A DNA stretch of 64,000 nt, taken from assembly GCA_965153355.1 (NCBI GenBank), contig OZ231126.1, positions 46,686,001 to 46,750,000 of the forward strand, written 5' to 3'. Positions within the stretch are counted from its first letter, which is position 1. Each line of letters starts with the position of its first letter. Below the pieces are notes generated by a model. It did not search any database and was not told where the DNA came from. It was given only the letters and a program-made list of their open reading frames with translations. Of the stretch, positions 9,080 to 63,007 are shown piece after piece. The DNA comes from Flaccisagitta enflata. Its lineage: Eukaryota. Made by a program: the position numbers and the translations under genes.

Positions 9080-9717
9080 CATTACGGTTTCTGCCGTTGT
9101 AGACAAACTTTCTTCTTATTCAAAAAAAAAAAAAAATAAATAAAAAAAATACGACTTTCTATTCAAAGCTAGGCAATCGACGTCTGCTAGATCGAAAAGG
9201 GGCGGGGCTTACGTTTGCTCGATGATTTTGTTTCGCATTCTTACTGGTTGATTACGCCGCTTAGCGTTGTTGTTCATTTGTCTCCTCCGATGTAGATGAA
9301 GTATTTCCTCTTTTACATATCATTTGATAGAAAATAGATTAGGAGATAAGTTATTCTAGCTATCTTACGATAATTCTGCCCAAGAACACTATCTATCAGG
9401 ATACCCATATGTCGCGTTTGTGTAGCGGTCCAATTGACTGGTTTTCCTGCAGGGCTGAAAAGAATTTGTGACACGAGCCTTCAGACTTCGCTGTGCTATT
9501 GACGTCTTCGCGCCGTTAAACGATGATGGCGTCGACTTTCTCGCTGACTTGGAAACATTTTAGATAAGAGATTCTAAATAAATGATTTATGTACGCCTCT
9601 GATGGTTAGAGGGGAGTGTCTGATATCAATGGGGAAATGACTAGTGTTTTTTTTTTCATTTACCAATAAAGGCGGCTAATCGCCGTAGGAAAAAAGTCGT
9701 AAATGCTGAGAGAAAGA

Positions 9718-10085
<368 letters not shown>

Positions 10086-10802
10086 AAACATGTAACACAG
10101 GGTATCAATATCATTGTGGACAGGGGCATCCAACCCCATCCGCACCCCAACCCCCACACACAAGTATCTAGACCGCTTGTTTTTCCACTTTTCACTCGGA
10201 CGGACAGACGGACCAACAGACCGATTGATGGACTCACAGACAAAGCCTCTCATAGAGTCTGGAGGTGAAGTGAGAGAGAAACTGTGCTGCCAGGATGCAC
10301 AATTATCACCAAAGACATTGCAGAGTTCAAACAGACTTCAACTAACTTGATTCCTTGTTTTTTGGGAAAACGCGAAAAATGCAGAAAAATAAAAAAAGAT
10401 TCAAAAATTCATAGCTCCAAAATTATTGATCGCACAGAATTCTGCTTGGCGTCATCTGAAAGAGGAGAATTAGCTCTTTCTTAGCTGTTAATTTCATGCG
10501 TAGTCCCATTCGGCCCGAAAAAAGCATCAACTTTCCCAAAAAACTCACGGGAAAAATGGAAAACCCAATTCCTCCGCAGGTCTCAAAAAGCCGAAGGTAT
10601 TCTTCGACTTTTTTCCAAATGATATCGATCCATCCGTCCTAAATACTACTATCCTTACGAAAGAAACGCAGCAGTTAGTAAATACTAAATAGGTTTAAAA
10701 GGAAGCTCAAAAATAACAAACCAATGCCAATATGTTTTTAGTCGCGTGCACGCGACTCTACAACTCGCTTTGTCCGTTGGTCGGTCGGTCACACTTTACT
10801 TT

Positions 10803-11309
10803 TGTAGTGCCGCGCGTTTCCCCTTCTTACCCTCTCTGATATCTGGGTTGGGTCCTTCCCTTTCCCTTGCCGGCTTTGCCCTACCTTCTCCTTCTCTCTC
10901 TGGCTATTGCCTTGGGACCTCCTCTTCCGTGGCTTCATCTTCCCCACTTTGGCCTACTTAAGGGAGGTGTGGCTGCAGTCTGGGAGAGGCCACTCCCCTT
11001 CCCCTGGCGTCTTATTCTCCCTGAGCAAGATGTCCATTTGGATATCACCTCTGTCCCCTTAGGATTGACTTCATTCTTAGGACCCCCCCCCTCTTAGGCT
11101 AGTTATGCAGAGATGACAGATTCATTAGGTCTTAGGGTCTTGTTAAGGGCTATATCACATATTATTTGCCTAGTTTGGTTCTTTCTCAGTACATTCTCCC
11201 CGCGGGCTCTTAGGGATCTTCTTTAGGAGTTTTTGGCAGGCACCCCATCTTTGAGCATTCTACCCCTGGACCCTGACGATAGCATCCTTCCGCCTACCCC
11301 GGCATATCA
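10803..11309 (+). repeat. 5' LTR (507 bp)
   Basis: By-eye comparison with 23723-24229 shows one substitution (G10962 vs C23882); TG...CA termini. Confidence 0.95.
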
Positions 11310-11310
11310 G

Positions 11311-11328
11311 TGGTGCTTTCGGCCGGTT
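11311..11328 (+). promoter_or_regulatory. Putative primer-binding site (TGGTGCTTTCGGCCGGTT); cognate tRNA not assigned
   Basis: Begins 1 nt after the 5' LTR with TGG (complement of tRNA CCA); loosely resembles the complement of tRNA-Val or tRNA-Gly 3' ends as I recall them. Confidence 0.7.
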
Positions 11329-12742
11329 CTGGCACCCTAGCTAGCTGAGAATAGGACCCATCTAGGAAGATTGTTTTCTTTTATATTGGCCATGGGACCC
11401 TCGGTCACTTTTGAAGACTGGGCACTGCAGGCTCTTTTGGTGAAAGGCACAAGTCTGAGTTACTTTACCCCTCCCCCTGTCTTGACTATGCTCTTATCTC
11501 TTGAGGAAGTGAGGATATTTTGCCCATCTTACCCCTTTTGGCACATGCTTTCCCGTAATGCCGTAGTATAGATGGGCTCTAAGAGGTGAACGCTGGTTAC
11601 ACCGAGTTTGATCGGACAGCCAATAACCCGAGTCATAGTGTAGGCCGTGCTGTAGTAGCTGGGGTCCCATCAAGGGCCGCTGTCGAAACCGTCGGCTAGT
11701 TCAATTCCCCCTTAGGACTTTGGGCAGACTCCTACAGTCATTGGCTGGGACGCAGATCCAAACCCCCCACTGTTGGAGCAAGAGTCTCCGGGCCAAATGG
11801 TGGAAGGTGGCATGGCCTCAAGAATAAGATGCTCTGGCACTTATCATCACTCCGCCCTCTGACTTGTTCATGGCCATTTTTGAGACCTATCAAGACGCTG
11901 ATTACCCTCTTGTCTCAGCTCGTCTCTTCATCTCAACTCACTTCTACTCCAAAGCTACAATCATCTAACCGCAAGGTCATCTTATCATGCTATCACCTAA
12001 CTACCATATCGTCTTACCATGTCATCGATCCTCATGGAATATCATCTGATTGTCCGCACCCGTTTGGACAAATGGCGGAATCCTTCTTGGACAAGTGCAC
12101 AATACACCTGTCCAACAGAATCACAAAAGCGTCTCAGGAACATCGTTTGTGGACTGAGACTATACCTGTGTCAAAACAACCCTCTACTGGCAGAACCCAA
12201 TCAAAGCAGCAACTTAAATCAAGACACCGGTCCTTGCTGGCAGTTGTACACTGGTACAAAAAGAGAAGATGTACGGACATTGGTACACATGCGACCAGTT
12301 TCGATAAATGAGAGGACAATGGTATCAAAACACTCCTACCACGCTGTGTGGGATGGGGTGTATCCATTTGTTTCTCTTGGACAATGGCAAAGACGGTGGC
12401 ATAGTGCCATAGACGACGGTAAAGACGACGGCAAAGACAAATGCAAAAAAGACGGCAAAGACAATGGAAGGTGGCAGTGGCGACTATGGACAGGCGCATG
12501 CTTGGAGATACTGACTCGTCTTTACGACTAATGACAAATTTGTGATTTTGTGAACCCGTTGCCGAAGGTTATCAAAAAAAAAAGAGAAAAAAAAAGAAAA
12601 AAAGAAAGAAAATAAAGACGAATGCAAAAGTGCACAAAAAAGAAAAAAGCGGAAGAAAGAAAAAGAATAGAATACAAAAAAAAGAAAGTAGAAAAAAATT
12701 CGGGGAGAATTACGGATAAAGGAAAAGCCGCGCATAGTGCAC

Positions 12743-12779
<37 letters not shown>

Positions 12780-13200
12780 ACAAGGTAACGAGGTTCTATT
12801 TCTTATCCCCTTGTTTTTTTTATCTCCTAACATGCTCATTGTCTTTATTACGCCCAACCGTTGCGTCTTTTCCCGTTATTGTTACTTTCCGTCGCATGAA
12901 TTACCTCGCGTGGATAATCTCAAGGCTGATTCTTCTGTGTTTTGTTTTCTCCCTGCTCGATTGCTTATTGTTTTTGTCACGTCGATATGTTACATCTGCT
13001 GCCGTCATTGTAAGTGTCTCGTAAACTTTCCTTTTCTTGCGCGAACGATCAATCTCAACCGGCGCCTGAATTATTTTTTTTTTCGAACTCCGACATCGAA
13101 CAACGTCCTAGGCCGACCACTGTGGGGAAAGGCTTAGATTACGTGTCAGTTTTTTTTTTCTTTTTTGCTTTATTATGTCTCTCCGTCCGTCAATCTATCT

Positions 13201-13527
13201 CGTTTGTCCTACCTCGTTTGTCCTACCTCGTTTGTCCTACCTCGTTTGTCCTACCTCGTTTGTCCTACCTCGTTTGTCCTACCTCGTTTGTTCTATCTCG
13301 TTTGTCCTATCGCGTTTGTCCTATCGCGTTTGTCCTATCGCGTTTGTCCTATCGCGTTTGTCCTATCGCGTTTGTCCTATCGCGTTTGTCCTATCGCGTT
13401 TGTCCTATCGCGTTTGTCCTATCGCGTTTGTCCTATCGCGTTTGTCCTATCGCGTTGGTCCTATCGCGTTTGTCCTATCGCGTTTGTCCTATCGCGTTTG
13501 TCCTATCGCGTTTGTCCTTTCGCGTTT
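13201..13527. repeat. 14-bp minisatellite, about 23 copies (CGTTTGTCCTACCT then CGTTTGTCCTATCG)
   Basis: Directly visible tandem array with two variant blocks. Confidence 0.95.
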
Positions 13528-14220
13528 GAACTATTTCTGATCAGTTTGTCTATCCATGGTTTGTCTGTCATTCCTTTTTAGTTGCGGACACGCAACTCTA
13601 TAAGAGGCTTTGTCCGTCCGTCCGTTCGCTCTGTCCGTCCGTCCGTGGACACGAGTCGAAAAGTGGGAAAACGCGCATATCCGCCCCTGCCCACACGTCC
13701 GCAACTTGTATTGGCCGTGTATCCGGCCTTGTTCTTTTATTGCAAACTTCACCCGACGCTTAGTCGCGTGGTCTGTAAACTCACTCCTGCCATGCTGTTT
13801 GGACCGGGGTGTATCCACGTCCCTTGTCATTTTTTTCCCCTTTTGACAACGTCTTGCGGGTAAGTTACTGTAAGGTACTAGTTAGCTTCTAGGATGCGTG
13901 GTAACGCAACCTTCATCAAAACACACTCCTGCCATTGTTTGGACCGGGGTGTATCCTTGTGGTAATTGCCGGAGATGGTGACTTCTGACGGACAGACGGG
14001 CACGCGGGCCGCTATTGTTATTCATTTGTCTTTGGTCCCTGCTCGTTCCCCTTTCCTTCTTTATTTCGTTTCTTATTATGTATTGGTTACCATCATTTTC
14101 TCGATGACACCCCCCCCCCCCCCTTGTATTTTGTTTCGGTTATGTCTTGTGTTACGCCTAATTTTACTTATCTTTTTCGCCTTAACTTGGCTTGTTTTAC
14201 TTTTCACCCTGGTTCTTAGT

Positions 14221-14368
14221 TTTTTTTTAGTCGCGTGCACGCGACTCTAAAACCCGCTCCGTCCGTCTGTTGGTCCGTCCGTCCGTCGGTTTGTCGGTCA
14301 TGCTTAGCTTTTTTCGCCGCCCCTGCCCACCCGCACGCGACTAAGGTAGCCGTGTATCCGGCCTTGTT
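14221..14368 (+). mobile_element. HINE/DINE-1-like non-autonomous Helentron, family 1, compact reference copy. Other copies approximately at 10735-10802 joined to 24230-24348, 13575-13733, 20469-20617, 25978-26272, 30465-30688, 31932-32127(-), 37335-37510, 40408-40590, 41396-41651, 42972-43150(-), 53173-53414, 53583-53778(-), 58278-58427(-), 62571-62783
   Basis: T-run, palindromic 5' subTIR AGTCGCGTGCACGCGACT, (GTCC/GTCG)n microsatellite, 3' subTIR GCACGCGACT, terminal stem-loop GCCG-TGTATC-CGGC, then CTTGTT. No TSD; insertion into T-runs. This matches the described HINE/DINE-1 architecture. Confidence 0.8.
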
Positions 14369-15639
14369 TACTTTTTTTTATTATTATTGTGTCTTTTTAT
14401 GTTTTGTTATGATTTATATTTGCCCCCTCTCCCTGCGTTTCTTTTACACCGCGCACCTGTCTTAATATTCCCCCTACCCCTTATTGCACCTTGTTTATTT
14501 TGGTTTTGCATGTTTCTCTTTCCTCTCAGAACCCACTAAGTTGAATCTGACGCAAACACGGCGCATGAGTCCGTTTCAGTTGTCCATATGGACAGATTTT
14601 GGAACTCTTACGCCGTTGCGCTGCTTTTGACGTGTCCGTAAGTTCTGCATTTGTCCCCCCACCCCCCTCTTTTTGTATGTTTTTTTTTTCGTTCCCTGTT
14701 AGCTTCGCCCACATTTTTTCCCCTCGCGCTTTATTTCTCTTTACTTTACTATTCTCTTTCTCTTGCTCTTTTCTTTTGTCCTTGGACGTTTTTCCCTACT
14801 TTTTTTTCCCCTTGATTTGGCGCCTGGTAACAGGATTCTCGCTCATATTGGTTGCCCCCTTCGACGTTGTTTTTATTCCTCGATCTCTCCCCACTGTTTC
14901 CCGTCTCGTCAATTTCATTTTCCCCTTACCTAAAGCTCCCCGTTCACTTCAATGATTCGTTTCTTTGTATATTTACCTTTGTTTGGACATTCATTCCCCT
15001 TACTCGATTCCCGATTTAGTAATTCCCCTCACATTGGCGTTTTGAATTCATTCTTTTATTTGGTTGAGTTTTTCCCCGTCAAATTCGCTAGGTTAAACCT
15101 GGCGTGGACGTGACGTTTGGGTATGTATCAGTTGCCCATATGGGCAGATTTTGAAGACTAATCGGCACCGCGCTATTTTTGACAAGATCGTGGGCTGCAG
15201 GTGGATAACAGTTGCCCACTTGGGCAGAATTCTGGACCCTTTCGTCAACACGCTGGCTGTAGGCTCTTTTGTTCGTCTGTCCGTTAGGTTGTTACCTTGA
15301 TTTGGGAGAAATGATGGGGGCTACGCGTTCGGGCATCTTAGTTTAGGTGAAAACAATAACAGATGAGTGTTCCTGCCATTCTGTTTGGACCGGGATGCTA
15401 AACGTGTTTTGTTTGCCCGAGTTGGGTTTGTTTGTTCGTAAGTGTACACTGTACACGGTCTCTGCTGTCTGCACGAGTCGCTGATGTCAAGATGCATGGG
15501 TCACTGGTTCGGTTTGTCTTAAAAAGGACCACCGCCTCCAAACGAACTCGCATGTGTGTCCTCTGCTCGAGCTTAAACTTCCACCCATTTGACCTTTTTA
15601 ACCATCCCCGACCCCCCCCCCCATGATTATCATTATTTC

Positions 15640-15965
15640 TGTCACTTATTATTCTTATTTTAATATTACTATTGATATTATTAAAAATATTATTATTAAT
15701 ATAATTATAATCATTATTATTATTGTTATTATTATTATTATTATTTTTTTATCGGTATCATTATTGTCATTTGTTGTTGTTATCGTGATCGTTATTATTG
15801 TTACTATTGTTATTGTTGTTATTATCATTTTTGTTGTTATTTCTGTTATCGTTATTCCTGTTTTTGTGGTTTTTATTTTTATTGTTGTAATTTTTGTTCT
15901 TGTTGCTCTCATTGTTGTTGTTGTGGTTGTTGTTATTGTTATGGTTGTTGTTGCTGTCGTTGCTT
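15640..15965. repeat. Degenerate (ATT/GTT)n trinucleotide tract
   Basis: Directly visible low-complexity region inside the LTR element. Confidence 0.85.
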
Positions 15966-18070
15966 CTTTGTCTCGGTTTGTTTGTCTGGTTTTTTTGTTT
16001 GTTTTTTTGGTCCTTACGTTTTGGCATTTTTGTTTGTTTTTGTTTCGCTTCATTTTTTTTTTTCGCGGTCGTTGTTTCTTGCCCTTGTTTTTTTTCTTGT
16101 TTTTGTTGTGTTTTTTTTCCTTGCTCTCGTTTCTGTTTGTTTTTTTTTTTCCTGTTTTGTTTGTCTCGGATTTACATGGTCACCATGTATTCTCTCCCCG
16201 CGGATTGCGTCATATTTAGTTGCCTATGTAGGCAAAATTTTCTGGCCGTTGCCGCGCGTGCTTTAACCGTGTCATGACCTGATAAGCTTGTTCACTCAAT
16301 CATGTGATTGCTTGTTTTGCTCGCTATTTTGTGGTCGACCATTTATTCATTCACATGCTTGCTCATTCCCTTATTTGCGTCCTCGTTCAGCAGGTCAAGA
16401 CACGGCATTGTAGATGGATACCTCGTTGAGCCTGCTGTTGCAACCAAGTGGAAGAACGGAAGAAAACGATGGGAAAAATCGAGCGGCGACTGTGCGACGC
16501 AGCTTTGGAAGCGCGCCCTTGTTCTCGAATTTTCAAGGATTGGGTTTGGCCACATGTTGGACAGGAAATGACCAGGTTTGCTCGCTCGCTCGTTTGCCCG
16601 CTTGTTCTGTGCTTGTTGCTTCACTTGTCCACATATGCTCGCTCATTTGCGCGCACTCATTTGGCGTTCGTCGGTTGGTATGTCTGCGTTTGTTCTCAAG
16701 TTTGTTCATTTGTTCGCTGTTTGTTCACATGTTTGTTCACATGTTTGTTCGTTGATGTGCCCGTCTGTGCTTTTGTTCCAGAACTGATCTGGTCATGCCA
16801 TGTCCAAGTCAATACATGCTAAATCAGCGTTTATGTCAGTACACGCATTGGTAGCCAGGGGGAGTGAAAATCTAAATATCGGCAAAAAGTTTCGTTCTTG
16901 GTCCTAATGTATATTTATATGTTTGGTAAGATTATTTAACAAAGATTTGACCCATTGGCTGGCCTTAGAGGGGCGCAAACATCATCAAATTTAGCCCTAG
17001 TCGACATGAAAAGTTTTGTCAGCTGATCTTTTCCATTCAAACGATTATAGCCAAGTCATTTTTTGATGGATTTATAAAAAATCGGTGACCAAAATGTAGA
17101 GTTTTTCAAGGGGCGTCCATCCTTTTTTTGCGCGACCAAATCGGTCAAACCGTTCAAAAGTTATGACCGCTCAAAGATAGGTGAGCGAGAAAAAAATCCG
17201 TAAAAATATGAAAAATCTCATTTCTATTCACAATTTTTGGTACTTTAAGTGCTCCGATTTTGATGAAATTTAATATGGAGGTAGTCCATAATGTGGAGTA
17301 CCTCCAGTAAAAAATTTGTTTAAATCGGTCAACTTTTAGGGGGGCAACGGCATTTTTTTTTTTAAAAATCGCGAAATAGCCGTTTTTTCAAAATTAAGGT
17401 ACATCAAAATTTTCAAAAACTAAAATTTTTTTAACAAAAAAAGCATCAGTAGGGTCTTATACATGTGCTTTTGAAATTTCAGGGCCATATTTCAACTTTT
17501 CTTAGGTTACAGGTTGAAAGAAGGCCAAAAATTGGCCATTTTCGCGTTTTTTGGTTTTACGGTCTTCGCTAAATTGTTATTTGACACCCAAAAAAGGCTC
17601 TCAGGGCCGCCAAATTTTTTTTGGGCATCACCAAGAGTCTTCTAAAGGAATTTTGGCCCATGGTTCATAGGTGCCTGCCATATTATGGCAATGTCTCAGG
17701 CTCAAAGACGATTTTTGGGGTTTTTTGTCAGAATTTTGGATTTTCGAACGCAATTCTTGGTACTTTATTTTGATGAAATTTCACATGGAGGTAGTCCATA
17801 ATGTGAAGTACCTCCAGTAAAAATTTTGTCCAAATCGGTCAACTTTTAGGGGGGTAACGACATTTTTTTTCTTTAAAAAAATCGCGAAAAAGCTGTTTTT
17901 TCAAAATTTAGGTACCTTAGAATTTTTACAGCCTCATAATTTTTTACATACAGCTTAATTTGGCTCCAACACATGTGCATGTCAAATTTCAAAGCTTATT
18001 TCCAAGTTTAAGATGGGCTCTTATAGAGTTGCGTGTCCGCAACTTAAAAGAGTTTATGTGCCATCTTATG

Positions 18071-18107
<37 letters not shown>

Positions 18108-18946
18108 CCTCCCTCGCGACTTTGTACATATTTACGAACAATTGAGCGTTCGTGAAACGTGCAGTGAGTTAAACCAAGTTTAGGTCGATTTTGAATATTT
18201 TGTGATGTCATCTGTTCAACCTACACAATAACACTTTAGTCGTTAATCAAGTTAGCCGTTAATCAAGTCATTGTCACCACTGTTTTTGTTTCTAATGAAA
18301 ATTTTATGTCCCACAGTACACCACATGACTTAAGTCGGGGTGCAAAAAAGGCAAAATTTTGGTTTCAGTCTATTTTCATAACTGTATTTTTTGATGAAAT
18401 TTGTCATTTTCTATTGAATATCAATCGGGGGGGGGGTGAATCTTAATTCCCCTTAGTTAAATATTATGTTATTAGTAAAAGAAACCCTAGTAAAGAAACC
18501 CTGGTGAAGGCTTTGTTTAATTGACACAGACCAAGAAATATTGACTGGAAATAATAGATTCCTTACAAGTAGAAGAGCAAAAATTCAAAACCTGCGATGG
18601 ATAAATTCTAAGACTTGTCACTTGAACAAATTGAACAATTTTGCGTTGTTGTTGTTGTTGTTGTTGTTGTTGCTGTCGTTAACAAAGTTGTCATCGCTGC
18701 TGTAATTGTCAATGATACATGATATGATGCCAAAACAAATATACTGGATTCTGATTGAGAGAGAGAAGAGAGAAGAGAGAAGAGAGAAGAGAGAAGAGAG
18801 AAGAGAGAAGAGAGAAGAGAGAAGAGAGAGTTCTTGACCAATCAAATCGACCGAAAAAAAAAATCCTGACTTGTTCCGAATTCGGTTCAGAGAAAAAAGC
18901 TTTCGTTGCGCGTGTGTGTGTGTTTGTGTTTGTGTTTGTGTTTGTG

Positions 18947-18994
<48 letters not shown>

Positions 18995-21011
18995 CCGGCC
19001 GGAAGTCTGTTGATCCATTTGTGGTGATCAAGTGAAACAAGGCCGGATACACGGCAAGACAGTCGCAGATGGTTAGGCAGGAGCAGTAATGCGAAAACTG
19101 CCCGGAATTCAAATATGTGATGGACCGACGGACCGACAGAAAATAGCAAGTAAAACAAATAAAAAAATGTCTTATCATATGATATTATGAGTTTTCATTG
19201 ACCATTATCAATCCCACAGTATACACAAAAAATTTCAACTCATTACTCAAACAAAAGGTTATCAAAAAATGGTGTGAATATCAAATTTTCCCCTCCTTTT
19301 TTCTCTCAAAGCTGAACATTATGACAATTATTTTTTTTAAACTCATTTTGCTTAAACATTAAGCATATTTTCTTTTGCCATTCGATGGACAACTACTTGA
19401 GGGACATTCCTCTCCATTTTCGTGTTAATGGATGGATCCTAAGCAGAGAAATAAAATTTTTCTTGGAGCGTATCAATTCGCGAACACCCCCAAATTGGTT
19501 CCTAACGCATACCTAACGCTCAAGATATGCCACTATGGTGTGAAAATGACACAATGTACATAAAATCTGATTACACCACGTGAAAGAGCGTGAAATTTTG
19601 AGTCTACACTGAAAATTTGAAGTCTTAACTCCCAGGCGTTCAGTCACAATGAAATTTCATATTTTTTTGGTCCTGAAAGTGTTGCAGAATTAATACGCTC
19701 ATCGGACGATCATCGTAGTTATTTTCTTCTCAGCAGAAGTCAAGATTTTGCGGACTTTGAAGAAAAAAAATACAATTTGTCCAATTTACAAAAATGCCCA
19801 TATCTCAGGAACCCTTCGAGCTACACCCATGATTTATTGCGGGAAAACAGACTTTACCAAGAGAGATCAGGAGAAAAAATTTGGTCTTCTGAAGATGAGT
19901 CCGACCAGCCCAACCAGCCCAACCAACCTACTAGATGAAAAATGAAAAGTGGCATAACTTTTTAATGAGTCGGCCAATTTGGCTGAAATTTTGCATGAAA
20001 GTTGATTAAGAGTATCTACATAAGTAGTATGAAGAAGAGCTTGGCGGAACAAATTCTTACCACACTGCCCAACCAACCAAAAATGGTGCTTACTGAGATT
20101 TTTTGAAAATTCATCATATTTTAATTTTTTTCCATGAAAAATCCTCACACAATTGCGTTTAAACATTATTTAGGTAAAAAATATTCTCATATTGATTTAT
20201 TTGCTACGATATGCTTTATTTTGTATTGTTTTGTGTACAAAATCTGTCTAATTAAGCTTAATTTGCATGAAAAATGTGCTCAGTAAACAAAATTCTTCTA
20301 TGCATTTTTTAATGTTACTTCATCAGCTATACAGTGATATATAGTTTTGTTGAATTTGAATCATTAAAAGAATGGCTAGTTCTACCCCTGCCCACTTGAC
20401 GTTTCTTGACATTCGCCTGCAGTCTTCGGTTTTGAGTCTGCGGTAGTATTTTTGAGTCCAGTTTCAATTTTTAGTCGCGGACACGCGACTGTATAAGCCA
20501 CTTTTTGGTCCATCAGTCCGGCGGTCTGTCTGTCCGTCCGTCACAAATCACTTTTTTAGGTTTTCCACTCCTGCCCACCCGACCGCGACTAATGCTGCCG
20601 TGTAAACGGCCTTGTTTTCAGTCTGTTGTCTTGATTTTCAAGTCGCGCTTTTCAAGTCCGTTCGCGATTTTTGAGTCTGTGTTTGCAATACGCAGTCTGT
20701 GGTCATGACATTAGAGTCTGGGCGCAATTTTCGAGTCTGTTGTTGCAATTTCCGAGTCTGTGGTCGCAATTTTTGGTCTGTGTGTGTCAGTGCTCGTGTG
20801 TGTGTGTGTGTGTGTGTGTGTGCGAATGTGTGTGTGTGTGTGTGCGAATGTGTGTGTGTGTGCGAATGTGTGTGTGTGCGAATGTGTCCACTGACGTGAA
20901 TGTTGAGAGGTGGAAAAAGAACATTCGAAGGAAGTTACGAAGCGAAGAAGCCCCGTTTATCTGCTCTCTCATCTGACTCATTTCGGAATCTGAGTATGAG
21001 AATTACAACAG

Positions 21012-21048
<37 letters not shown>

Positions 21049-21239
21049 TTCATCTTTTTAGTTGTGGACACGCAACTCCATAAGAGGCCGTCAGTCCGTC
21101 GGTCCGTGTGTGGGGGTTTGGGTGTGGATGCAGGTTGGATGCCCGCTATGTTTGTTAGCTCACTCGCTTTTGCAGCGGTCTGCTTGGCTACACTCGCTTT
21201 GCTCCCTCGCTCCATTCACCGGCTCGCTTGCTCACTCAA

Positions 21240-22540
21240 TATCCGAGTCTGTGGTCTTGATTTCCGAGTCTGTCGTCTTGATTTCCGAGTCTCTGGTCTC
21301 AATTTCCGAGTCTGTGTTCTCGATTTCCGAGTCTGTGGTCTCAAATTCCCAGTCTGTGGTCTCGATTTCCCAGTCTGTGGTCTCAAACTCCCGATTTCCC
21401 AGTCTGTGGTCTCGATTTCCCAGTCTGTGGTCTCGATTTCCCAGTCTGTGGTCTCAATTTCCCAGTCTGTGGTCTCGATTTCCCAGTCTGTGGTCTCAAT
21501 TTCCCAGTCTATGGTCTCAATTTCCCAGTCTGTGGCCTCGATTTCCCAGTCTGTGGCCTCGATTTCCCAGTCTGTGGTCTCAATTTCCCAGTTTGTGGTC
21601 TTGATTTCCCAGTCTGTGGTCTTGATTTCCCAGTCTGTGGTCTCGATTTCCCAGTCTGTGGTCTCGATTTCCCAGTCTGTGGTCTCGATTTCCCAGTCTG
21701 TGGTCTCAATTTCCCAGTCTGTGGTCTCAATTTCCCAGTCTGTGGTCTCAATTTCCGAGTCTGTGGTCTCAATTTCCGAGTCTGTGGTCTCAATTTCCGA
21801 GTCTGTGGTCTCGATTTCCGAGTCTGTGGTCTCGATTTCCGAGTCTGTAGTTTCGATTTCCGAGTCTGTAGTCTCGATTTCCGAGTCTGTAGTCTCGATT
21901 TCCGAGTCTGTGGTCTCGATTTCCGAGTCTGTGGTCTCAATTTCCGAGTCTGTGGTCTCAATTTCCGAGTCTGTGGTCTCAATTTCCGAGTCTGTGGTCT
22001 CGATTTCCGAGTCTGTGGTCTCGATTTCCGAGTCTGTGGTCTCGATTTCCGAGTCTGTGGTCTCGATTTCCGAGTCTGTGGTCTCGATTTCCGAGTCTGT
22101 GGTCTCGATTTCCGAGTCTGTGGTCTCGATTTTCGAGTCTGTGGTCTCGATTTTCGAGTGTGTGGTCTCGATTTTCGAGTCTGTGGTCTCAACTTCCCAG
22201 TCTGTGGTCTAGATTTCCTTATCTGTGGTCTGGATTTCCGAGTCTGTGGTCTGGATTTCCGAGTCTGTGGTCTGGATTTCCCAGTCTGTTGTGTCGATTT
22301 CCCAGTCTGTTGTGTCAATTTCCCAGTCTGTTGGGGCGATTACCGAGTCTGTGGGGGCAATTACCGAGTCTGTGGGGGCAATTACCGAGTCTGTGGGCGC
22401 GATTACTGAGTCTGGGGGCGCAATTTCCCAGTCTGTGGGGGCGATTTCCCAGTCTGTGGGGGCGATTTCCATATCTGTGGTTGCAAGTTTCAAGTTTATG
22501 ATCAAGTCTGTGGTCAAGGTTTTCGAGTCTGTGGTCACAA
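21240..22540. repeat. 21-bp minisatellite, about 60 copies ((G/C)AGTCTGTGGTCTC(G/A)ATTTCC)
   Basis: Directly visible; degenerate units also at 20430-20780; explains the SISESVV/SRPQTRK pseudo-ORFs. Confidence 0.95.
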
Positions 22541-23707
22541 CAGCCACAGCTTTTTGAGAAAATAATATCCATTATAATTTTCATATTCTTCATGAAAAGA
22601 GGATTCGAATGATATGCTGAAACATATACTTTATCAGTTACTATCTTAAAAAATTGTGCAGGAAGGAAAAATCTTCTTCTGATCAGTATTCGTAACAGCC
22701 GCAATTTCGCGGCGCCTAAACCAGACAACAACCTTGATGATTTTTTTTCGATTAAATTTTTTTAACTTATGCGAGGCTGGCGGCGCCGATCGGGTGAGCC
22801 GATTTGGACGCGGCCAACGGCGTTTGATCACAAATTTTACAAAGTTTTTCCTATAAAAAGTTATAAATCATAACGCCATATTAAGAGGCGTTTTTATTTG
22901 TTCGTAATTATCTAAATATGATGAAATTGGCATAGCTGATATATACTGTTTGAACACCGCTATTTCACGATAGTTATTGACCTCTCCGTGATCTATATGA
23001 ATAGATACTAATTGATATAGGATAATTTAATCATATATATGTCACTAACCAATTATTTTGTGTTCCATATACATAAGAAAATATAAAACTAAGCGATTTT
23101 TGACAAAAAATAAATTTGACGTTGTCGGTTTCACTCTCCCTCGCTAGCATTGGCGCGCCTACAAATTAATGGCCAGGACGAACGAATTGCAATGACGCGG
23201 CAAGGAGAGTGCGCTTCAGAACCGATCTTAGGATTCCTCTCTTCGACGAAATTTGATACATTGGACGACCTCGCTAGCATCTTTTCACGGTTTCTGATTG
23301 TAAATGTATTCTCGCTTGGGACATGAGTGATACTTCGCCGTTTGTATGTTTATAGGCATACCCACATTGTACTACTGTTACGTGGTATTGCTTTTTCACT
23401 ATTTTCCTATCCATTATTGATGACGTCATTTGGAGACATCGCATTGTCGGTCGTGATTATTATTTCTCATGTTGGCTGATTTGTAATTGCGTTTTATTTT
23501 GTGCCGCATAACACACATTGCATAGTTGGATGTGATTATTGCTCTTTGCGTTGATTTATTGTTGATTACGTGGTGCAGCGCGGACTCTTCAGCACACATG
23601 TGCTGGTATCATTATTTACGGTTACGTACATATTTTTGGTGAAAGGATGGGGGTCTCTTTGTCTTAGGATAAGCTACTCATTTTGACGCTGGGGACATCG
23701 TCTCGGC

Positions 23708-23718
23708 GAGAGGGGGAG
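23708..23718 (+). promoter_or_regulatory. Polypurine tract (GAGAGGGGGAG)
   Basis: All-purine run 4 nt upstream of the 3' LTR. Confidence 0.75.
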
Positions 23719-23722
23719 CAAC

Positions 23723-24229
23723 TGTAGTGCCGCGCGTTTCCCCTTCTTACCCTCTCTGATATCTGGGTTGGGTCCTTCCCTTTCCCTTGCCGGCTTTGCC
23801 CTACCTTCTCCTTCTCTCTCTGGCTATTGCCTTGGGACCTCCTCTTCCGTGGCTTCATCTTCCCCACTTTGGCCTACTTAACGGAGGTGTGGCTGCAGTC
23901 TGGGAGAGGCCACTCCCCTTCCCCTGGCGTCTTATTCTCCCTGAGCAAGATGTCCATTTGGATATCACCTCTGTCCCCTTAGGATTGACTTCATTCTTAG
24001 GACCCCCCCCCTCTTAGGCTAGTTATGCAGAGATGACAGATTCATTAGGTCTTAGGGTCTTGTTAAGGGCTATATCACATATTATTTGCCTAGTTTGGTT
24101 CTTTCTCAGTACATTCTCCCCGCGGGCTCTTAGGGATCTTCTTTAGGAGTTTTTGGCAGGCACCCCATCTTTGAGCATTCTACCCCTGGACCCTGACGAT
24201 AGCATCCTTCCGCCTACCCCGGCATATCA
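23723..24229 (+). repeat. 3' LTR (507 bp)
   Basis: Direct copy of 10803-11309; preceded by purine tract, followed by CTTT. Confidence 0.95.
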
Positions 24230-24976
24230 CTTTTTTTTATGATTTTATTACTTTGACCTCCCTGCTCCCGCCCAAATGGTCTGGTGACCTCAAAAATGGC
24301 CCCTGCCCACCCGCACGCGACTTCGGTAGCCGTGTATCCGGCCTTGTTTAATTAGTGAGGGCTCCTCCAGCATCAATAATGGCTTGTGTTCGATGTGGCA
24401 TGGATTGGAAGAGGTGCTGCAAGTTTTTTGGTGTAATTGTTCGCCAAAACTTTCCTGCGATTTTTTTTTCAGGTTAATTACTCTGACAATCACCCTTATT
24501 TTGCTTGTAACTTAAAAACAAATTAAACTAGAAATGCCAGGTTGGTCCCATTTTAAAGATCTCTTCAGGACCTTTCCAACTGTCACCAATTTTTTTGTGA
24601 ATCCGTTCAAAAATTAGTGAGTTCTAACATGTAAAACATGAGCTTTTTTTTATGGGGATAACATTTTTTTTTCACTTTTCTGAAATGAAACTCTTTCTTT
24701 AATCTACTCTCAGACTACTTTTGGACTTAGTGAGATGCGGATTGCAGGGCTAGATAGATCTTTTGCTCTAGTTTTTTTCAGTCATGAATTCTAATTGAAT
24801 CCGACTTTGCAAAGGCGCTCAATTGAGTAAAACAACTGCTGCGTTTATTTCGGCAAAGATAGGAACAAACGCCTATTTGCAACGATGCATCGGTGTAATG
24901 ATACTATTTCTCATTTCTCAATTCTTTTAGGCGCAACTCTATATCAAAGTCGATGCTTCTTTTACATCAGGATATA

Positions 24977-29575: not shown

Positions 29576-31100
29576 GAAGGAAGGAAGGGAGGAAAGAGGA
29601 AGAGGCTAAAAAAAGACAAAAAAAAGAAAAAAAGTTTGTTTTCCTTCTGTATATCAAGCTCCTGCAATTGTTTTTTTGTTTTTCTCAGTACACAGTACAC
29701 CTACTACATAATTTTTTAAAAAGATTTTCAGAGAAGGATTAAGCCATGAGAAATAATACAGTGGTAGTTGTTTTACTGATAACTACCTCTCTTATTTCCT
29801 CCCTTCCTTCCCTTCTTCTTTCTAGGAAGGAAGGAAGGAAGGAAGGAAAGAAACAAGGAAGGAAGGAAAAAAAGGGAGGTGGAAAAGAATGGGAAGAAAA
29901 TAAAAGAAGGTTGAAGGGAAGGAAAGAAAGAAGAGGGGAAGGAAGGGAGGAAAGAAGAGAGGTAGTGATGGCTATCAGTAAAACAACTACCACCATATTA
30001 TTAGGCTACTAAAACGCGCCAACTCAGAGAAATTGAGAGAGAGAAAAAAGTTGTCAGAAATTTTAATGTCCCTCAACCCTAGCGTATCTGCTACAAAATT
30101 TAAGAAAATATCATTATTTTTATCAGACTTTGCTTGATTTATCACAGAGTCAGACCACAGTACTTTTTTTGGCGATGAAAATAGTGATGATTAACAGAAA
30201 TTAAAAAAATGCTAAGAAAATTTCGTTTTGACTGAAATCAGAGAACTGTGTGGCCATGTTCGCCCATACGCCTTGTAGATCAGGCTTTGCTGATTCTAAA
30301 TCTGTTTTTAAAAATCTCGTGCGATATGGCGGGAAATGGCGAGAGGTGAAACCGTGAACCCTTTTCATTAGAGGTAGGAGCATAAATATTGTCATAGAAT
30401 CGACGCGTAAAACTGACGCAGACGATTCATGCGTTGTTCCCGTTGCAACGTAATTTCATTTTTGTTTTTAGTCACGTGTTTCGCGACTCTACACCCCGCT
30501 TTGTCGGCCCGTCTGTCCATTGGTCCGTCTGTTGGTCCATTCGTCCGTCCATCACACTTTACTTTTTTTGTTTGTTTTTTTTTTGCGATTTTGGGCCTCA
30601 CTGCTCCTGCCAAAATGATGGAGTGACCTTAATTATGGCCCCTGCCCACCCGCACACGACTGGGGTAGCCGTGTATCCGGCCTTGTTCTTAAACTCTTTA
30701 TTGTAAGTTTGAAACAAAAAATAAGATATAGGCTCAGTACAATATCAATGGAACTGACTTTTATGGGGATTGCCAACGACAAGTTGTCCAAAGGAAGCAC
30801 GCCGATTTTTAGTTGCATGCTGGGCCGAGCGTGACACTGCGGTAAACCTCTATCCTGTGGACGTTGCAACAACGCCATTTTCCGCCACGTGGCGTAACGA
30901 TGCAATTCATTTCAATATCGTGTCGGGGACGGTACGGTATGGGACGGGTTCTCAATCATCATAAGTATCTGTATTTACTCATCTGTGGTTACAACTTCAA
31001 AAATACGCTAGACAACCTCACATTTTTAAGGAGGACATATCACTGATGGACAGATGGACTGATGGACTGATGGACAGACAGACAAGGAGATATAAGCAGG

Positions 31101-31598: not shown

Positions 31599-33483
31599 TA
31601 GGTTGGACGAAGATCCACGATTTCGGAAATCTGTCTAGCTTATATCAGTGATGAGTTCAGAATCACGTACTAAGAGCTACTATCAAGTGTTAAGACCATG
31701 GAGTGGAAAAAATTGTGGTCGTGCCACCCTCCCCCCTTCACTCTTAGGCCCACCTTCTACCATGTGAATTTTCTCAATTTCTGATTGAATAATCTCCCGA
31801 AAAAGGGTCTAATACACTTGTCCCCTCCATCTCCTTGCGATACAAACACAGGGGTACCAGGGAAAGGATATGGAGTTGAAATAATGGGAGAAAGAGAACC
31901 CAAGCAGCCCTTAATAGGGCCCAAAAACCTCAACAAGGCCGGATACACGGCTACCCCAGTCGCGTGCGTGTGGGCAGGGGCCATAATTGAGGTCACTCCA
32001 TCATTTTGGCAGGAGCAGTGAGGCCAAAAACCGCAAAACCCCAAAAAAAGTAAAGTGTGACGGACGGACCGACGGACGGACGGACCGACAAAGCGGGGTG
32101 TAGAGTCGCGTAGCACGCGACTAAAAATTGAATTGAAGATGTTTAAAATGAGCAATATTCTTTTTTTCTGTTCTGTGGTACCTTAGCACTACATTTACTG
32201 ATCAGTTCTTTTCAGCAATTGTTGGGGTGCGTTTCTAAGAGCCTCTCATAGGGCCTTGAAACTAAAAAAAATGGATTCTCCATGCAATTTTGTGCAGGAA
32301 TGGCTTTTTGTGGGCACCTTCAATGATTTTTTTAACTAGCTTTCTCAAATCTTGCGTGTCAAGGGTAAGAACAAGTAAGAATGAGAACAGGTCGCCCAAG
32401 GGTGGTCAGCGATACCCGTTGCCCTGCTTCGCATGATTGTGAATTGGAGTGAGGGGAAGCAGGGCAGCGGCCCCGAAGGGGACTTAGGGCTAGCATAACA
32501 AGAGTTCATGCAAAGTCATAGGAAAGTTCTCTATCAGAGGGATATGACTCAAAATCATGTACATACTACATAGATAAACCAACACAAAAATTTGACCCTG
32601 GGACCTCTAAAAATTACCGCCGCCACCCCCCCTCATTTCCCATAGAAAATGTACAGGAAGGATTTTTACCTATGTTTTATTATGGGAAAGGGGGCAGGTG
32701 ACGGCGCCAATTTTTAGGGAATCTAAGACTAAATTTTTTTCATAGACCATCTTTAAACATGATTTTGGGCCATATCCCTCTGATAGAGAACTTTTCCATG
32801 AAATCTCATTAATTGTTGTTATGCTACTTAGGGCGTGTTTCTACTGAAGATGAAAAACGCGTTCGTTCCAATTGAACGTGTTTACAGCGTGAACACACAT
32901 TCAAGAATTTCAACTGTCCCACAAGGGAGTGAGTGAAGTGAGTGAGCGAGATTGTGAACGGAGCAAGCGAGCGAAGCAAAGCAGAGCGCTGTGGAGCGAG
33001 TGAGCGGAGTGGGTGGTGCGAGCGAACAAACGAAAGTAGAGAACAAACAGCCCATTAAAAACGCGATTGTCTCTTACTAGAAATGCCCCTAAAGTCCTTT
33101 AGAATATTGGGGACTTTCATTGGTCCGTCTGTTTGTTCATTTGTCCATCTGTCCGTCTGTCTGTCTGTCCGTCCATCTCCCCAGGCCCTCTCAGGCCTGA
33201 AATCTGATCTCTCAGGGCTGAAATCTACCTCAGGCCTGAAATCTGCCCTTTCATGCCGTGAATCTAAGAAGGCAGATCTAAGGCTGGAGAGGGCCTGAGA
33301 GAGCAGATTTCAGACCTGAGAGAGCATATTTTCTGGTTTCTAGAGAAGGGGGGGGTGGCACGACCACAGTTCTTCTTACTCTGTGGCCCTAAAACTTTAT
33401 AGAATTTCCTTGTACACGTCCCTGAACGCCTCACTTACACAAGCAAGACAGATTTCCGAGATCGTGGTTCTTCGTCCAACCTA
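31599..33483. mobile_element. hAT-like non-autonomous element, 8-bp TSD (ACCTGTAC/ACCCGTAC)
   Basis: TAGGTTGGACGAAGA ... TCTTCGTCCAACCTA with about 140 bp of inverted similarity; TSD has one mismatch. Confidence 0.8.
32491..32826. mobile_element. hAT-like fold-back MITE, perfect 8-bp TSD CTTAGGGC
   Basis: TAGCATAACAA ... TTGTTATGCTA; CTTAGGGC at 32483-32490 and 32827-32834. Confidence 0.85.
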
Positions 33484-54383: not shown

Positions 54384-55541
<1,158 letters not shown>

Positions 55542-61432: not shown

Positions 61433-63007
61433 GTCTAGCAAGTGATCACACGGCGTCCAGGAACAAACCATAGGTCTAAAAAAATGCTCAAGAATCCTGA
61501 CCTGGGAAAAAGTCTTTTTTGATGCATTAGCTATCAATTTACAGCAAAAATTAAAAAATCGGCTTGGAAATATAGAATTGATGGTCAAATAATAGCCAAA
61601 AAAGGCATTTTTAAGCATACAGTTAAGCTTCACTAGAAGGCGTCTCAAGGGACCGGTTGATTTCATACCTTCTAGGCGGGGTGCCTTATAGCCAAGCATG
61701 TATATTTCTGCACCACACAGAATACATAAGGTTCAAATATGCTTTAAAATTCTATCTTTTGGTTTGATACACAATCAAATAGGTATAGATGGATGCTAGG
61801 AAGTGGCAACAAAAAGAATATGGATCTTTCTTTACTTTTTGCAAAAAGTAAACAGTCTCGCTGTTCATCATTTATTAACCAGCTTGCCACCTGATTCACC
61901 ATGAATGAGACCGAAAAGTGACTGCAGTGGTTAAAAAATGACACAAACTCATGATAGGTATCGTATTTCTTTCCATGAAAGACTTTGTTGAAGATGACAG
62001 AGTGAAAAGATTTAAACGGATGTAAGACTGTGTCACTTTCATTGCTTTTGAAATTAGCATGGTAGCAACCATTCTTAGACCCTAAATTCTTAGACTCTAA
62101 AGGCATGAAGTGGTTTATTGGCTTGGATCCATCGGCTAATCGACTTATCGCTCCTCTTCTTCATCATCTCCCTCCTCTCCCTTTCATTTCACTTTGTCTG
62201 TTTAATTCACTTCCTCTTCATCATCTTCATCAGTGCTCCTCTTCATCATCGGTATACCTCTTCATTGTCATTGGTATTCCCAGGGTCCGACAAAATTTTT
62301 CGCTGCCTACGAGCAAAAAATTTATACTGGTCGCTGCTTACAAATTTTGCGTATGATTTTTGCATGATTGCAATAGCAGAAAAATTTCATAGTAATATGC
62401 AGTACATCAACCGAATGAATTTTGTGGGCAGGAATGAGGAGTCTATAAAAAAACTCATTATTTCTTTCACTTGACCTTGTTGAGGTAGGATTAAATGAAA
62501 ACCTTGTATGAAATAAACTATACGCTGAAGATGATTTACATCAGCAATTATACATCTATATATCATTTGCTTTTTTAGTTGCATGCTACGCGACTCTACA
62601 CCCCGCTTTGTCGGTCCGTCCGTCCGTCCATCTGTCCTTCAGTCCGTCCGTCCGTCACACTTTACTTTTTCGGCGTTTATGGGGTTTTTGGCTATACCGC
62701 TCCTGCCCAAATGCTCCACTGACCTAAAATATGGCCCCTGGCCACCCGCACGCGACTGGGGTAGCCGTGTATCCGGCCTTGTTTTCTTACCATGAACTTT
62801 AAAGGAAAAACTTTGTAGGCAGCAACTAATCAAATTTCATAACGCATGAAATCTGCATTCTGAAGTACCAGATGTTCTAGCTATACAATCCTTAATTTTC
62901 AAGTCATTTCTTTCCTTTTCAATATTCTTTTTCTTTGTTGCTCTCTTTCTTTTTGATCCTTTTTTTTTTACTTCCTTTTCTCTCTCCTTTTTTTTTCTTT
63001 TTTCCTT

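What the first reader, a model, noticed from the sequence alone, without database searches (positions are those of the whole stretch)
10803..24229. Very young 13.4-kb non-coding LTR element carrying genome-like cargo
Seen: 507-bp LTRs with a single mismatch, TG...CA ends, CTTT TSD, PBS-like and PPT-like sites, and flanks that rejoin into one host repeat. The 12.4-kb interior has no long non-repetitive ORF and no RT, integrase or zinc-knuckle motif that I can find. It does contain at least five HINE-like copies, DNA-transposon-like fragments, microsatellites and two minisatellite arrays. Known: LTRs are identical at insertion, 4-bp TSDs are typical of Ty3/Gypsy integrases, and large non-coding LTR elements (LARDs) are described mainly from plants. 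Inference: many decayed repeats are unlikely to have accumulated after so recent an insertion. They probably travelled inside the element's RNA, making it a trans-mobilised shuttle for non-coding DNA, satellites and Helentrons in an animal genome.
Basis: partly seen in the sequence, partly recalled or inferred. Interest (0 to 1): 0.85.

Follow-up and report, generated by a model that had tools for sequence, protein, structure and literature searches.

The report
Young non-coding LTR element, repeat-rich interior
This is a well-formed, recently inserted LTR retrotransposon copy that has lost all its genes and carries about 10 kb of ordinary repeat-rich host-like DNA, a known kind of parasite-of-a-parasite element (LARD type) that is rarely documented this cleanly in an animal.

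Summary
Two 507-bp LTRs (10803-11309, 23723-24229) differ at one base. They have TG..CA ends, a CTTT target duplication, a TGG site after the 5' LTR and a purine tract before the 3' LTR. The flanks rejoin seamlessly into one HINE-like host repeat. The 12.4-kb interior has no Pfam-detectable gag or pol, either in ORFs or in six read-through frames.

Contigs of three public DNA runs show that the LTR and the first 1.25 kb of interior belong to a multi-copy family. Relatives of that stretch in metagenome proteins switch frames, so it is non-coding.

The middle ~10 kb matches the surrounding genome in GC, tandem-repeat load, HINE-like density and HINE-like divergence. It most likely rode in the template RNA and did not accumulate after insertion.

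Best reading: a LARD-type non-autonomous LTR retrotransposon mobilised in trans.

Not shown:
- a second copy with the same cargo;
- the autonomous partner;
- read-level contiguity;
- RNA.

No genome was held, and every scan for other copies failed. The wider "shuttle" claim is therefore plausible but untested.

Verdict: a new member of a known kind, of moderate interest.

The parts
10799..10802 (+). Target-site duplication CTTT, left copy, inside a HINE-like host repeat (about 10735-10802 plus 24234-24348)
10803..11309 (+). 5' LTR, 507 bp, TG..CA, GC 51.9%
   Evidence: Multi-copy in runs X1, X2 and X5. One X5 contig starts to fit exactly at 10803.
11311..11324 (+). PBS-like site beginning TGG, one base after the LTR; the priming tRNA is not identified
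   Evidence: no tRNA gene in the window
11310..12560 (+). Family-specific 5' internal non-coding domain (GC 48.2%, 4% tandem repeats). It holds stop-free frames 11700-12311 and 12001-12531 that are not conserved as frames.
12574..12777 (+). A-rich tract ending in A34 (12744-12777), at the border between the family-specific domain and the genome-like cargo
12561..22549 (.). Genome-like cargo, about 10 kb: GC 41.8%, 27.9% tandem repeats (interior without the 21-bp array: 14.3%; outside the element 16.6%)
13195..13528 (+). 14-bp minisatellite, about 24 units, directly upstream of a HINE-like copy
13573..13739 (+). HINE-like copy (head and tail)
14224..14382 (+). HINE-like copy (head and tail)
17231..17991 (+). 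Two copies of a ~250-nt unit (17231-17481, 17751-17991), 79% alike
18012..18051 (-). HINE-like head only
19034..19133 (-). HINE-like tail fragment
19870..20169 (-). Piece of another dispersed repeat. Its translation has 13 relatives in the representative library (4 at E<=1e-10; best identity 77-88%).
20463..20617 (+). HINE-like copy (head and tail), followed by degenerate 21-bp units and (TG)n
21053..21092 (+). HINE-like head (variant), about 140 bp upstream of the 21-bp array
21235..22481 (+). 21-bp minisatellite, about 52-60 units
22550..23707 (+). 3' internal segment, AT-rich (GC 38.0%), no tandem repeats. Conservation in other copies is not shown.
23708..23718 (+). Polypurine tract GAGAGGGGGAG
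23723..24229 (+). 3' LTR, 506 of 507 identical to the 5' LTR (mismatch at 23882)
24230..24233 (+). Target-site duplication CTTT, right copy

Best explanation
The stretch is one copy of a multi-copy, non-autonomous LTR retrotransposon of the LARD type.

Shown by calls:
- a complete set of cis-structures: LTRs, TG..CA ends, a TGG site, a polypurine tract and a 4-bp TSD;
- a single integration event into a HINE-like host repeat;
- no gag or pol;
- a family-specific, GC-rich 5' internal domain that recurs in other copies;
- a middle ~10 kb that looks like ordinary genome.

Inferred:
- The copy was made by reverse transcription of a ~12.9-kb RNA transcribed from a source copy that already held this interior.
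- It was packaged and integrated by proteins of an unidentified autonomous LTR element.
- The source copy arose when host DNA became enclosed between a 5' LTR-PBS end and a PPT-3' LTR end. Alternatively, a long-lived non-coding lineage collected nested insertions between cycles. Each cycle resets the LTRs to identity while the interior keeps its old repeats.
- With one difference in 507 bp, the integration is recent. At substitution rates of about 1-5e-9 per site per year it falls at roughly 0.2-1 million years, with a wide Poisson interval. The rate is assumed, not measured.
For: Structure.

Single event: the flanks rejoin into one repeat copy. 6 of 30 hits span the join, and the alignment has no gap there.

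Non-coding: 0 of 68 ORFs and 0 of 6 read-through frames reach a Pfam cut-off. No Rfam family is found, so there is no hammerhead.

Family:
- Contigs of X1, X2 and the metagenome X5 cover the LTR. Mean summed word depth is about 36,600 / 15,200 / 103.
- They cover 11324-12560 at about 2,900 / 2,500 / 6.5.
- One 300-nt contig (11538-11837, 2 differences) is present in both X1 and X5.
- Contigs break at the LTR edges 10803 and 11309.

Relatives: 6 relatives among 143 candidates of the frame 11700-12308, at 66-88% identity. They switch between the window's two frames, so this is a conserved non-coding sequence.

The copy is young rather than merely homogenised:
- Both LTRs share about 6-7 minority states against the family's majority. 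These are 10906, 10972, 11013, 11053, 11083 and 11223, with 11209 at half. That is about 1.3% from the majority.
- The 5' interior differs from the majority at roughly 5-10 of 1,250 sites.

The cargo is old and genome-like:
- GC is 41.8% against 41.4% outside. The LTR is 51.9% and the 5' domain 48.2%.
- HINE-like tails: 4 in 12.4 kb inside against 12 in 50.6 kb outside.
- Their mismatches to a local consensus are 6-15 of 58 inside against 5-11 of 58 outside, with one outlier at 26.

The concept is in print (passage in PMC6431247).
Against: - No other copy with this cargo was seen. No genome is held, and all six scans for related loci found nothing.
- A mid-cargo frame (16346-16642) has no relatives. 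Neither does a 3' internal frame that was meant as the positive control, so that comparison is uninformative.
- Another individual's run (X2) holds only 0.30 of the sampled words of 10400-20399, against 0.64 in X1. This could mean that the cargo is rare or private. It could equally reflect polymorphism.
- The LTR-to-interior depth ratio is about 6-16, not 2. Most LTRs of the family therefore stand alone or bound a different interior. The tool warns that summed depth is not a copy number.
- A 12.4-kb interior exceeds the ~10 kb that the review calls rarely exceeded.
- The PBS could not be matched to a tRNA.
- Contiguity of the assembly is not checked at read level. The contigs laid are 75-365 nt.
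Confidence: 0.6

Rival explanations
1. Old insertion made to look young. A shorter family member integrated long ago and its interior was filled in place by HINE-like and other insertions and by repeat expansion. The two LTRs were later homogenised by gene conversion.
For: The interior equals the surrounding genome in composition, repeat density and repeat divergence. No second copy with the cargo is known. The family-specific parts are confined to the two ends.
Against: Conversion would have to cover all 507 bp. Both LTRs lie only about 1.3% from the family's majority. The 5' internal domain is not subject to LTR-LTR conversion, yet it is under about 1% from the majority contigs. The TSD is perfect.
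Confidence: 0.13
2. Assembly artefact. The two junctions are real, but part of the interior was joined in falsely through shared repeats in a very repeat-rich genome.
For: Flanking repeats reach summed depths in the millions. The laid contigs are 75-365 nt, and none bridges from the family-specific ends into the cargo.
Against: Two compensating false joins would be needed to leave and re-enter the same element. The PBS and PPT sit exactly where they should. The window has no N. Both LTRs carry the same minority haplotype, not a polished family consensus.
Confidence: 0.1
3. The cargo was acquired in the very retrotransposition that made this copy, for example by template switching of reverse transcriptase onto a co-packaged host transcript. 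On this reading no stable cargo-bearing lineage exists.
For: An A-rich tract ending in A34 lies exactly at the border of the family-specific domain, on the element's sense strand. No other copy with the cargo is known.
Against: 10 kb of intergenic-type DNA with HINE-like copies in both orientations is an unusual single RNA. Two precise switches would be needed. Nothing tested here bears directly on this reading.
Confidence: 0.1
4. Host DNA lying between two independent solo LTRs or two recombined elements.
For: None beyond the genome-like interior.
Against: Identical 4-bp duplications, and flanks that rejoin without a gap into one repeat copy. A PBS-like and a PPT-like site sit at the inner LTR edges. 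The LTRs are 506 of 507 identical.
Confidence: 0.03

Closest known systems
LARD (large retrotransposon derivative; Kalendar et al. 2004, cited in PMC6431247, passage read)
   Same: It is bounded by LTRs and longer than 4 kb. It has no coding capacity and a non-coding internal domain shared among copies. Mobilisation in trans is presumed.
   Different: It is found in a marine animal, not a grass. The interior is 12.4 kb, where the review says interiors rarely exceed 10 kb. Only the 5' 1.25 kb is shown to be shared, and the rest looks like captured genome. No partner is identified.
Dasheng/RIRE2-type pairs of non-autonomous and autonomous LTR elements in rice (PMC1940013, search listing and abstract only; details recalled)
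   Same: A non-autonomous element that would depend on a partner sharing its LTR, PBS and PPT.
   Different: No partner was seen here. The LTR-to-interior depth excess only hints at other elements with the same LTR.
TRIM, e.g. PbTRIM of the harvester ant (PMC3532108, abstract in the listing)
   Same: A non-autonomous LTR element in an animal.
   Different: TRIMs are miniature (size recalled as under about 1 kb). This element is 13.4 kb.
Tandem-repeat-bearing LTR elements such as Ogre (PMC7004042, abstract in the listing)
   Same: Tandem arrays inside an LTR element, which could be spread by retrotransposition.
   Different: Those are autonomous plant elements with arrays in their own untranslated region. 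Here the arrays sit next to HINE-like copies inside the cargo.
HINE / non-autonomous Helentrons carrying satellite-like arrays (PMC4067079, passages; PMC7492417, abstract)
   Same: The host repeat and the cargo repeats have a palindromic subterminal repeat at both ends, a central microsatellite, T-rich borders and adjacent tandem arrays.
   Different: The 3' hairpin is not supported by folding (z = +0.2). No Rep/helicase partner is in the window.

Membership tests
LTR retrotransposon (structural definition) | Two direct long terminal repeats with TG..CA ends | tested here: met
   507 bp, 506 of 507 identical, TGTAG...ATATCA
LTR retrotransposon (structural definition) | Target-site duplication of 4-6 bp, and an uninterrupted target once the element is removed | tested here: met
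   CTTT on both sides. The rebuilt site aligns without a gap to 6 other repeat copies.
LTR retrotransposon (structural definition) | Primer-binding site complementary to a tRNA 3' end next to the 5' LTR | tested here: inconclusive
   TGG begins one base after the LTR. No tRNA gene lies in the window, so no complementarity could be tested.
LTR retrotransposon (structural definition) | Polypurine tract next to the 3' LTR | tested here: met
   An 11-nt purine run at 23708-23718, 4 nt before the LTR
LARD | Large size (over about 4 kb; threshold recalled) and no gag or pol | tested here: met
   13,427 bp. 0 of 68 ORFs and 0 of 6 read-through frames reach a Pfam cut-off.
LARD | Conserved non-coding internal domain shared by family members | tested here: inconclusive
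   Shown for 11310-12560. Not shown for 12561-23722 (no other copies could be fetched).
LARD | Mobilised in trans by an autonomous partner sharing the cis-signals | not testable with these tools
   No genome is held. Scans of other collections were empty.
Ty3/Gypsy superfamily | RT/integrase phylogeny and domain order | not testable with these tools
   No pol remnant is present. A 4-bp TSD is not diagnostic (recalled).
TRIM | Miniature size (recalled: under about 1 kb in total) | tested here: not met
   13.4 kb
Retrozyme | Hammerhead ribozymes in the terminal repeats | tested here: not met
   No Rfam family at gathering score anywhere in the window
HINE (non-autonomous Helentron), for the host repeat and cargo repeats | Palindromic subterminal inverted repeats near both ends (PMC4067079) | tested here: met
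   AGTCGCGTGCACGCGACT follows the 5' T-run, and GCACGCGACT lies about 26 nt before the 3' end. The head hairpin has z = -3.6 and -3.8 in two copies.
HINE (non-autonomous Helentron), for the host repeat and cargo repeats | Short palindrome or stem-loop near the 3' end | tested here: not met
   The 3' tails of two copies fold no better than shuffles (z = +0.21 and +0.19).
HINE (non-autonomous Helentron), for the host repeat and cargo repeats | Autonomous Helentron with Rep/helicase/endonuclease sharing the ends | not tested
   None in the window: 0 of 25 long ORFs outside the element reach a Pfam cut-off.

The most novel reading that the evidence does not exclude
An active lineage of giant non-coding LTR elements in a marine planktonic animal repeatedly retro-copies ~10-kb blocks of host DNA. 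These blocks include non-autonomous rolling-circle transposons and their minisatellite arrays. DNA transposons and satellites would then be dispersed through an RNA intermediate, seeding new arrays at unlinked sites.
Probability: 0.18. Interest if true: 0.6.

Novelty: new member of a known kind. Interest (0 to 1): 0.36.

Why it matters
If several copies with the same cargo exist at different sites, this element would be a clean animal example of retrotransposition moving large blocks of non-coding host DNA, other transposons and satellite arrays. That would bear on how very repeat-rich marine invertebrate genomes grow and how satellites become dispersed. As it stands, it is a well-documented single copy of a LARD-type element. 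It is useful as a seed for annotating the family and for finding its autonomous partner.

Tried and rejected
- Whole-genome search: no genome is held.
- Earlier findings of this scan: nothing by place, by sequence (two queries) or by words.
- Fetching other copies failed everywhere. The viral-contig scans with the 24-mer and with two frames found nothing. The genome-contig scan with the 24-mer found nothing.
Only 9900-12560 could be laid. The cargo, the 3' junction and an empty-site joint therefore remain unexamined.
- RNA: in the polyA RNA run X24, 0 of about 12.2 million records read lay on 9900-12560. The tool itself calls this 'no test'.
They say nothing about expression.
- Cargo versus family comparison by protein search: the mid-cargo frame 16346-16642 had no relatives. 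The 3' internal frame 23134-23349, meant as the positive control, had none either. The comparison is therefore uninformative.
- The difference in word share between X1 (0.64) and X2 (0.30) was considered as evidence that the cargo is private. It was set aside because polymorphism alone could produce it.
- Hypotheses rejected: two independent solo LTRs, a retrozyme, a TRIM (size) and a hidden autonomous element.
- tRNA assignment of the PBS: not possible, because no tRNA gene is in the window.
- Papers: a search for LARD plus crustacean found 0 papers.
- Supplements of PMC4067079, which hold the subTIR tables, are PDFs and were not seen. They could bear on the HINE label.

Full report
OBSERVATION

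The two repeats at 10803-11309 and 23723-24229 are real. blastn gives 99.803% identity over 507 nt, and the LTR matches nothing else in the 64-kb window. The single difference is 10962 G against 23882 C.

The ends read TGTAG...ATATCA. CTTT stands directly before the first repeat (10799-10802) and directly after the second (24230-24233). One base after the 5' repeat comes TGGTGCTTTCGGCC. Four bases before the 3' repeat lies an 11-nt purine run, GAGAGGGGGAG.

I rebuilt the site as it would look without the element and one TSD copy. Of its 30 blast hits in the window, 6 run across the join by at least 15 nt on each side. The best is 79% over 196 nt. A multiple alignment with other copies of the same ~200-bp repeat shows no gap at the join. 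The 13,427 bp therefore entered as one unit into one copy of a host repeat. This excludes two independent solo LTRs and recombinant elements from different sites.

CODING CAPACITY

The interior has 116 stop-to-stop frames of 50 aa or more. I scanned the 68 with entropy of at least 3.6 and left out the 48 low-complexity ones. None of the 68 reaches a Pfam cut-off. The best is 17 bits against a cut-off of 22.9.

I then read the whole interior through in all six frames with X at the stops. None of the 6 frames has a family at its cut-off. The only row is Laminin_II at 18 bits against 33, on the translated minisatellite.

There are no tRNA genes in the window and no Rfam family, so it is not a retrozyme.

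Frames of 203 and 176 aa lie open at 11700-12531. The 203-aa frame has 6 relatives among 143 candidates, at 66-88% identity, from assembled contigs of 659-1466 nt. Their sequences jump between the window's two overlapping frames. The copies therefore differ by frame-shifting indels. This is a conserved non-coding sequence, not a gag.

A MULTI-COPY FAMILY

No genome is held, so I used public runs. The stretch 10400-20399 is held by two runs of one coded organism: X1 holds 0.64 of the sampled words and X2 holds 0.30. Marine metagenomes of several studies hold 0.17-0.25. The host is therefore a marine, probably planktonic, animal.

The part 9900-12560 could. All runs laid as contigs cover the LTR and the 5' interior. 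Mean summed word depths are:

| Run | LTR bins | 11324-12560 |
|---|---|---|
| X1 | about 36,600 | about 2,900 |
| X2 | about 15,200 | about 2,500 |
| X5 (metagenome) | about 103 | about 6.5 |

- One 300-nt contig (11538-11837, 2 differences) occurs in both X1 and X5.
- Contigs break at the LTR edges. One X5 contig begins to fit exactly at 10803 and carries 18 further letters that do not fit. Contigs of X1 and X5 end at 11309 and 11308.
- The tool warns that summed depth is not a copy number, and I have no single-copy baseline. I therefore claim only 'multi-copy'.
- The LTR-to-interior ratio of about 6-16, instead of 2, suggests many solo LTRs or other elements sharing the LTR.

At six LTR positions the family's majority letter differs from this copy: 10906, 10972, 11013, 11053, 11083 and 11223. 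Position 11209 is split about evenly. Both LTRs of this copy share the minority letters. So the copy is about 1.3% from the family majority. Its LTR identity is a property of the copy, not a product of polishing towards a consensus. The 5' interior differs from the majority at roughly 5-10 of 1,250 sites.

THE CARGO

Composition splits the element into parts:

| Part | GC | Tandem repeats |
|---|---|---|
| LTR | 51.9% | - |
| 11310-12560 | 48.2% | 4% |
| 12561-22549 | 41.8% | 27.9% |
| 22550-23722 | 38.0% | none |
| Window outside the element | 41.4% | 16.6% (12-20% in windows of equal size) |

The interior without the 21-bp array has 14.3% tandem repeats.

The ~200-bp host repeat recurs inside the cargo. 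Three copies have both head and tail, two are lone heads and one is a lone tail.

- Tails occur 4 times in 12.4 kb inside and 12 times in 50.6 kb outside, that is 0.32 against 0.24 per kb. One outside hit is probably spurious.
- Against a local consensus of 58 columns, the inside tails differ at 6, 11, 13 and 15 positions. The outside tails differ at 5-11, with the spurious one at 26. This is a short and crude measure, and subfamilies are not separated.
- Another cargo piece (19870-20169) belongs to a further dispersed repeat, with 13 relatives of its translation, 4 of them at E<=1e-10.
- The two minisatellites sit beside HINE-like heads.

If these repeats had entered after integration, the whole genome's load of them would have to be as young as the LTR pair (0.2% divergence). 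Yet the copies differ from one another by 10-25%. The cargo therefore predates the integration, unless the LTR identity is secondary.

MECHANISM

The best reading (0.6) is a LARD-type non-autonomous LTR retrotransposon. A source copy already holding this interior was transcribed from LTR to LTR, and proteins of an autonomous element reverse-transcribed and integrated the RNA. Every cycle regenerates identical LTRs while the unconstrained interior keeps whatever it had collected or enclosed. [quoted passage not shown] The same passage says such interiors rarely exceed 10 kb, and this one is 12.4 kb.

The structure, the single integration, the lack of genes and the multi-copy status of the family are shown by calls. 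The RNA route, the partner and the origin of the cargo are inferred.

RIVALS

- An old insertion with LTRs homogenised by conversion (0.13). Against it stand the closeness of both the LTR and the 5' interior to the family majority.
- An assembly chimera within the interior (0.10). This is not excluded, because no read spans it.
- Cargo acquired in this very retrotransposition by template switching (0.10). The A-rich tract ending in A34 at the border, 12574-12777, is a hint.
- Two independent LTRs (0.03). This is contradicted by the TSD and the flank rejoin.

WHAT REMAINS OPEN

I could not fetch any other copy. The scans of metagenome, viral and prokaryote contigs were all empty. A mid-cargo frame had no relatives, but neither did the 3' internal frame chosen as the positive control. 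The lower word share in X2 may mean that the cargo is rare, or only that the species is polymorphic. The polyA RNA run gave no reads even on the hyper-abundant flank repeats, which the tool rates as no test.

COMPARISON AND NOVELTY

Structurally the element meets the LTR-retrotransposon criteria, except that the PBS could not be matched to a tRNA. It meets the LARD criteria of size and lack of genes. The conserved internal domain is shown only for the first 1.25 kb. The superfamily cannot be assigned without pol.

The label 'HINE-like' for the host and cargo repeat is supported by a palindromic subterminal repeat at both ends (head hairpin z = -3.6 and -3.8), a central microsatellite and T-rich borders. 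The 3' hairpin named in PMC4067079 (passages) is not supported by folding (z = +0.2).

LARD is a routine class in animal genome annotations (7 papers listed, seen as listing only). TRIMs are described in an ant (abstract). Tandem arrays inside plant LTR elements and satellite-carrying Helentron derivatives in an oyster are in print (abstracts).

This is therefore a new member of a known kind. It is notable for its size, its youth, and its cargo of rolling-circle-type repeats with minisatellites. Interest is 0.36. It would rise to about 0.6 if several copies with the same cargo were found at different sites.

Noticed in passing
window 10078-10790 and copies across the window (e.g. 30500-30700, 31920-32140, 53570-53790, 62610-62800): The HINE-like ~200-bp repeat and neighbouring repeats are extraordinarily abundant. 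Summed contig depth reaches 8.4 million in X1 and 207,000 in a marine metagenome, about 200-2000 times the LTR. The window holds 16 tail matches and about 14 head sites in 64 kb.
   Followed up: partly
window 1-64000: No protein-coding gene is evident. 0 of 25 stop-free frames of 130 aa or more outside the element reach a Pfam cut-off. Most long frames are translated microsatellites.
   Followed up: partly
window 54384-55541, minus strand: A 385-aa open frame holds very long polyQ and polyS runs. Its non-repetitive ends (e.g. the last ~45 aa) recall, from memory only, the C-terminus of an alpha/beta-hydrolase such as arylformamidase. No Pfam match was found. It may be a gene exon invaded by CAG/AGC repeats.
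   Followed up: no
window 19870-20169, minus strand: The translation of this cargo piece has relatives down to 40% identity with a recurring pattern, in 13 representative clusters. This suggests an old, widespread short dispersed repeat with a conserved core. Its family is unknown.
   Followed up: partly
window 17231-17481 and 17751-17991: Two copies of a ~250-nt unit, 79% alike and 510-520 nt apart, with no match elsewhere in the window.
   Followed up: no
window 9645-10337: An AG/CT-rich tandem region is open in all six frames. It was the first repeat that blocked the laying of reads.
   Followed up: no
window 12574-12777: An A-rich tract ending in a pure A34 run lies on the element's sense strand, exactly where the GC-rich family-specific domain gives way to genome-like DNA. 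It may be the tail of a retroposed sequence or a trace of how the cargo was joined.
   Followed up: no
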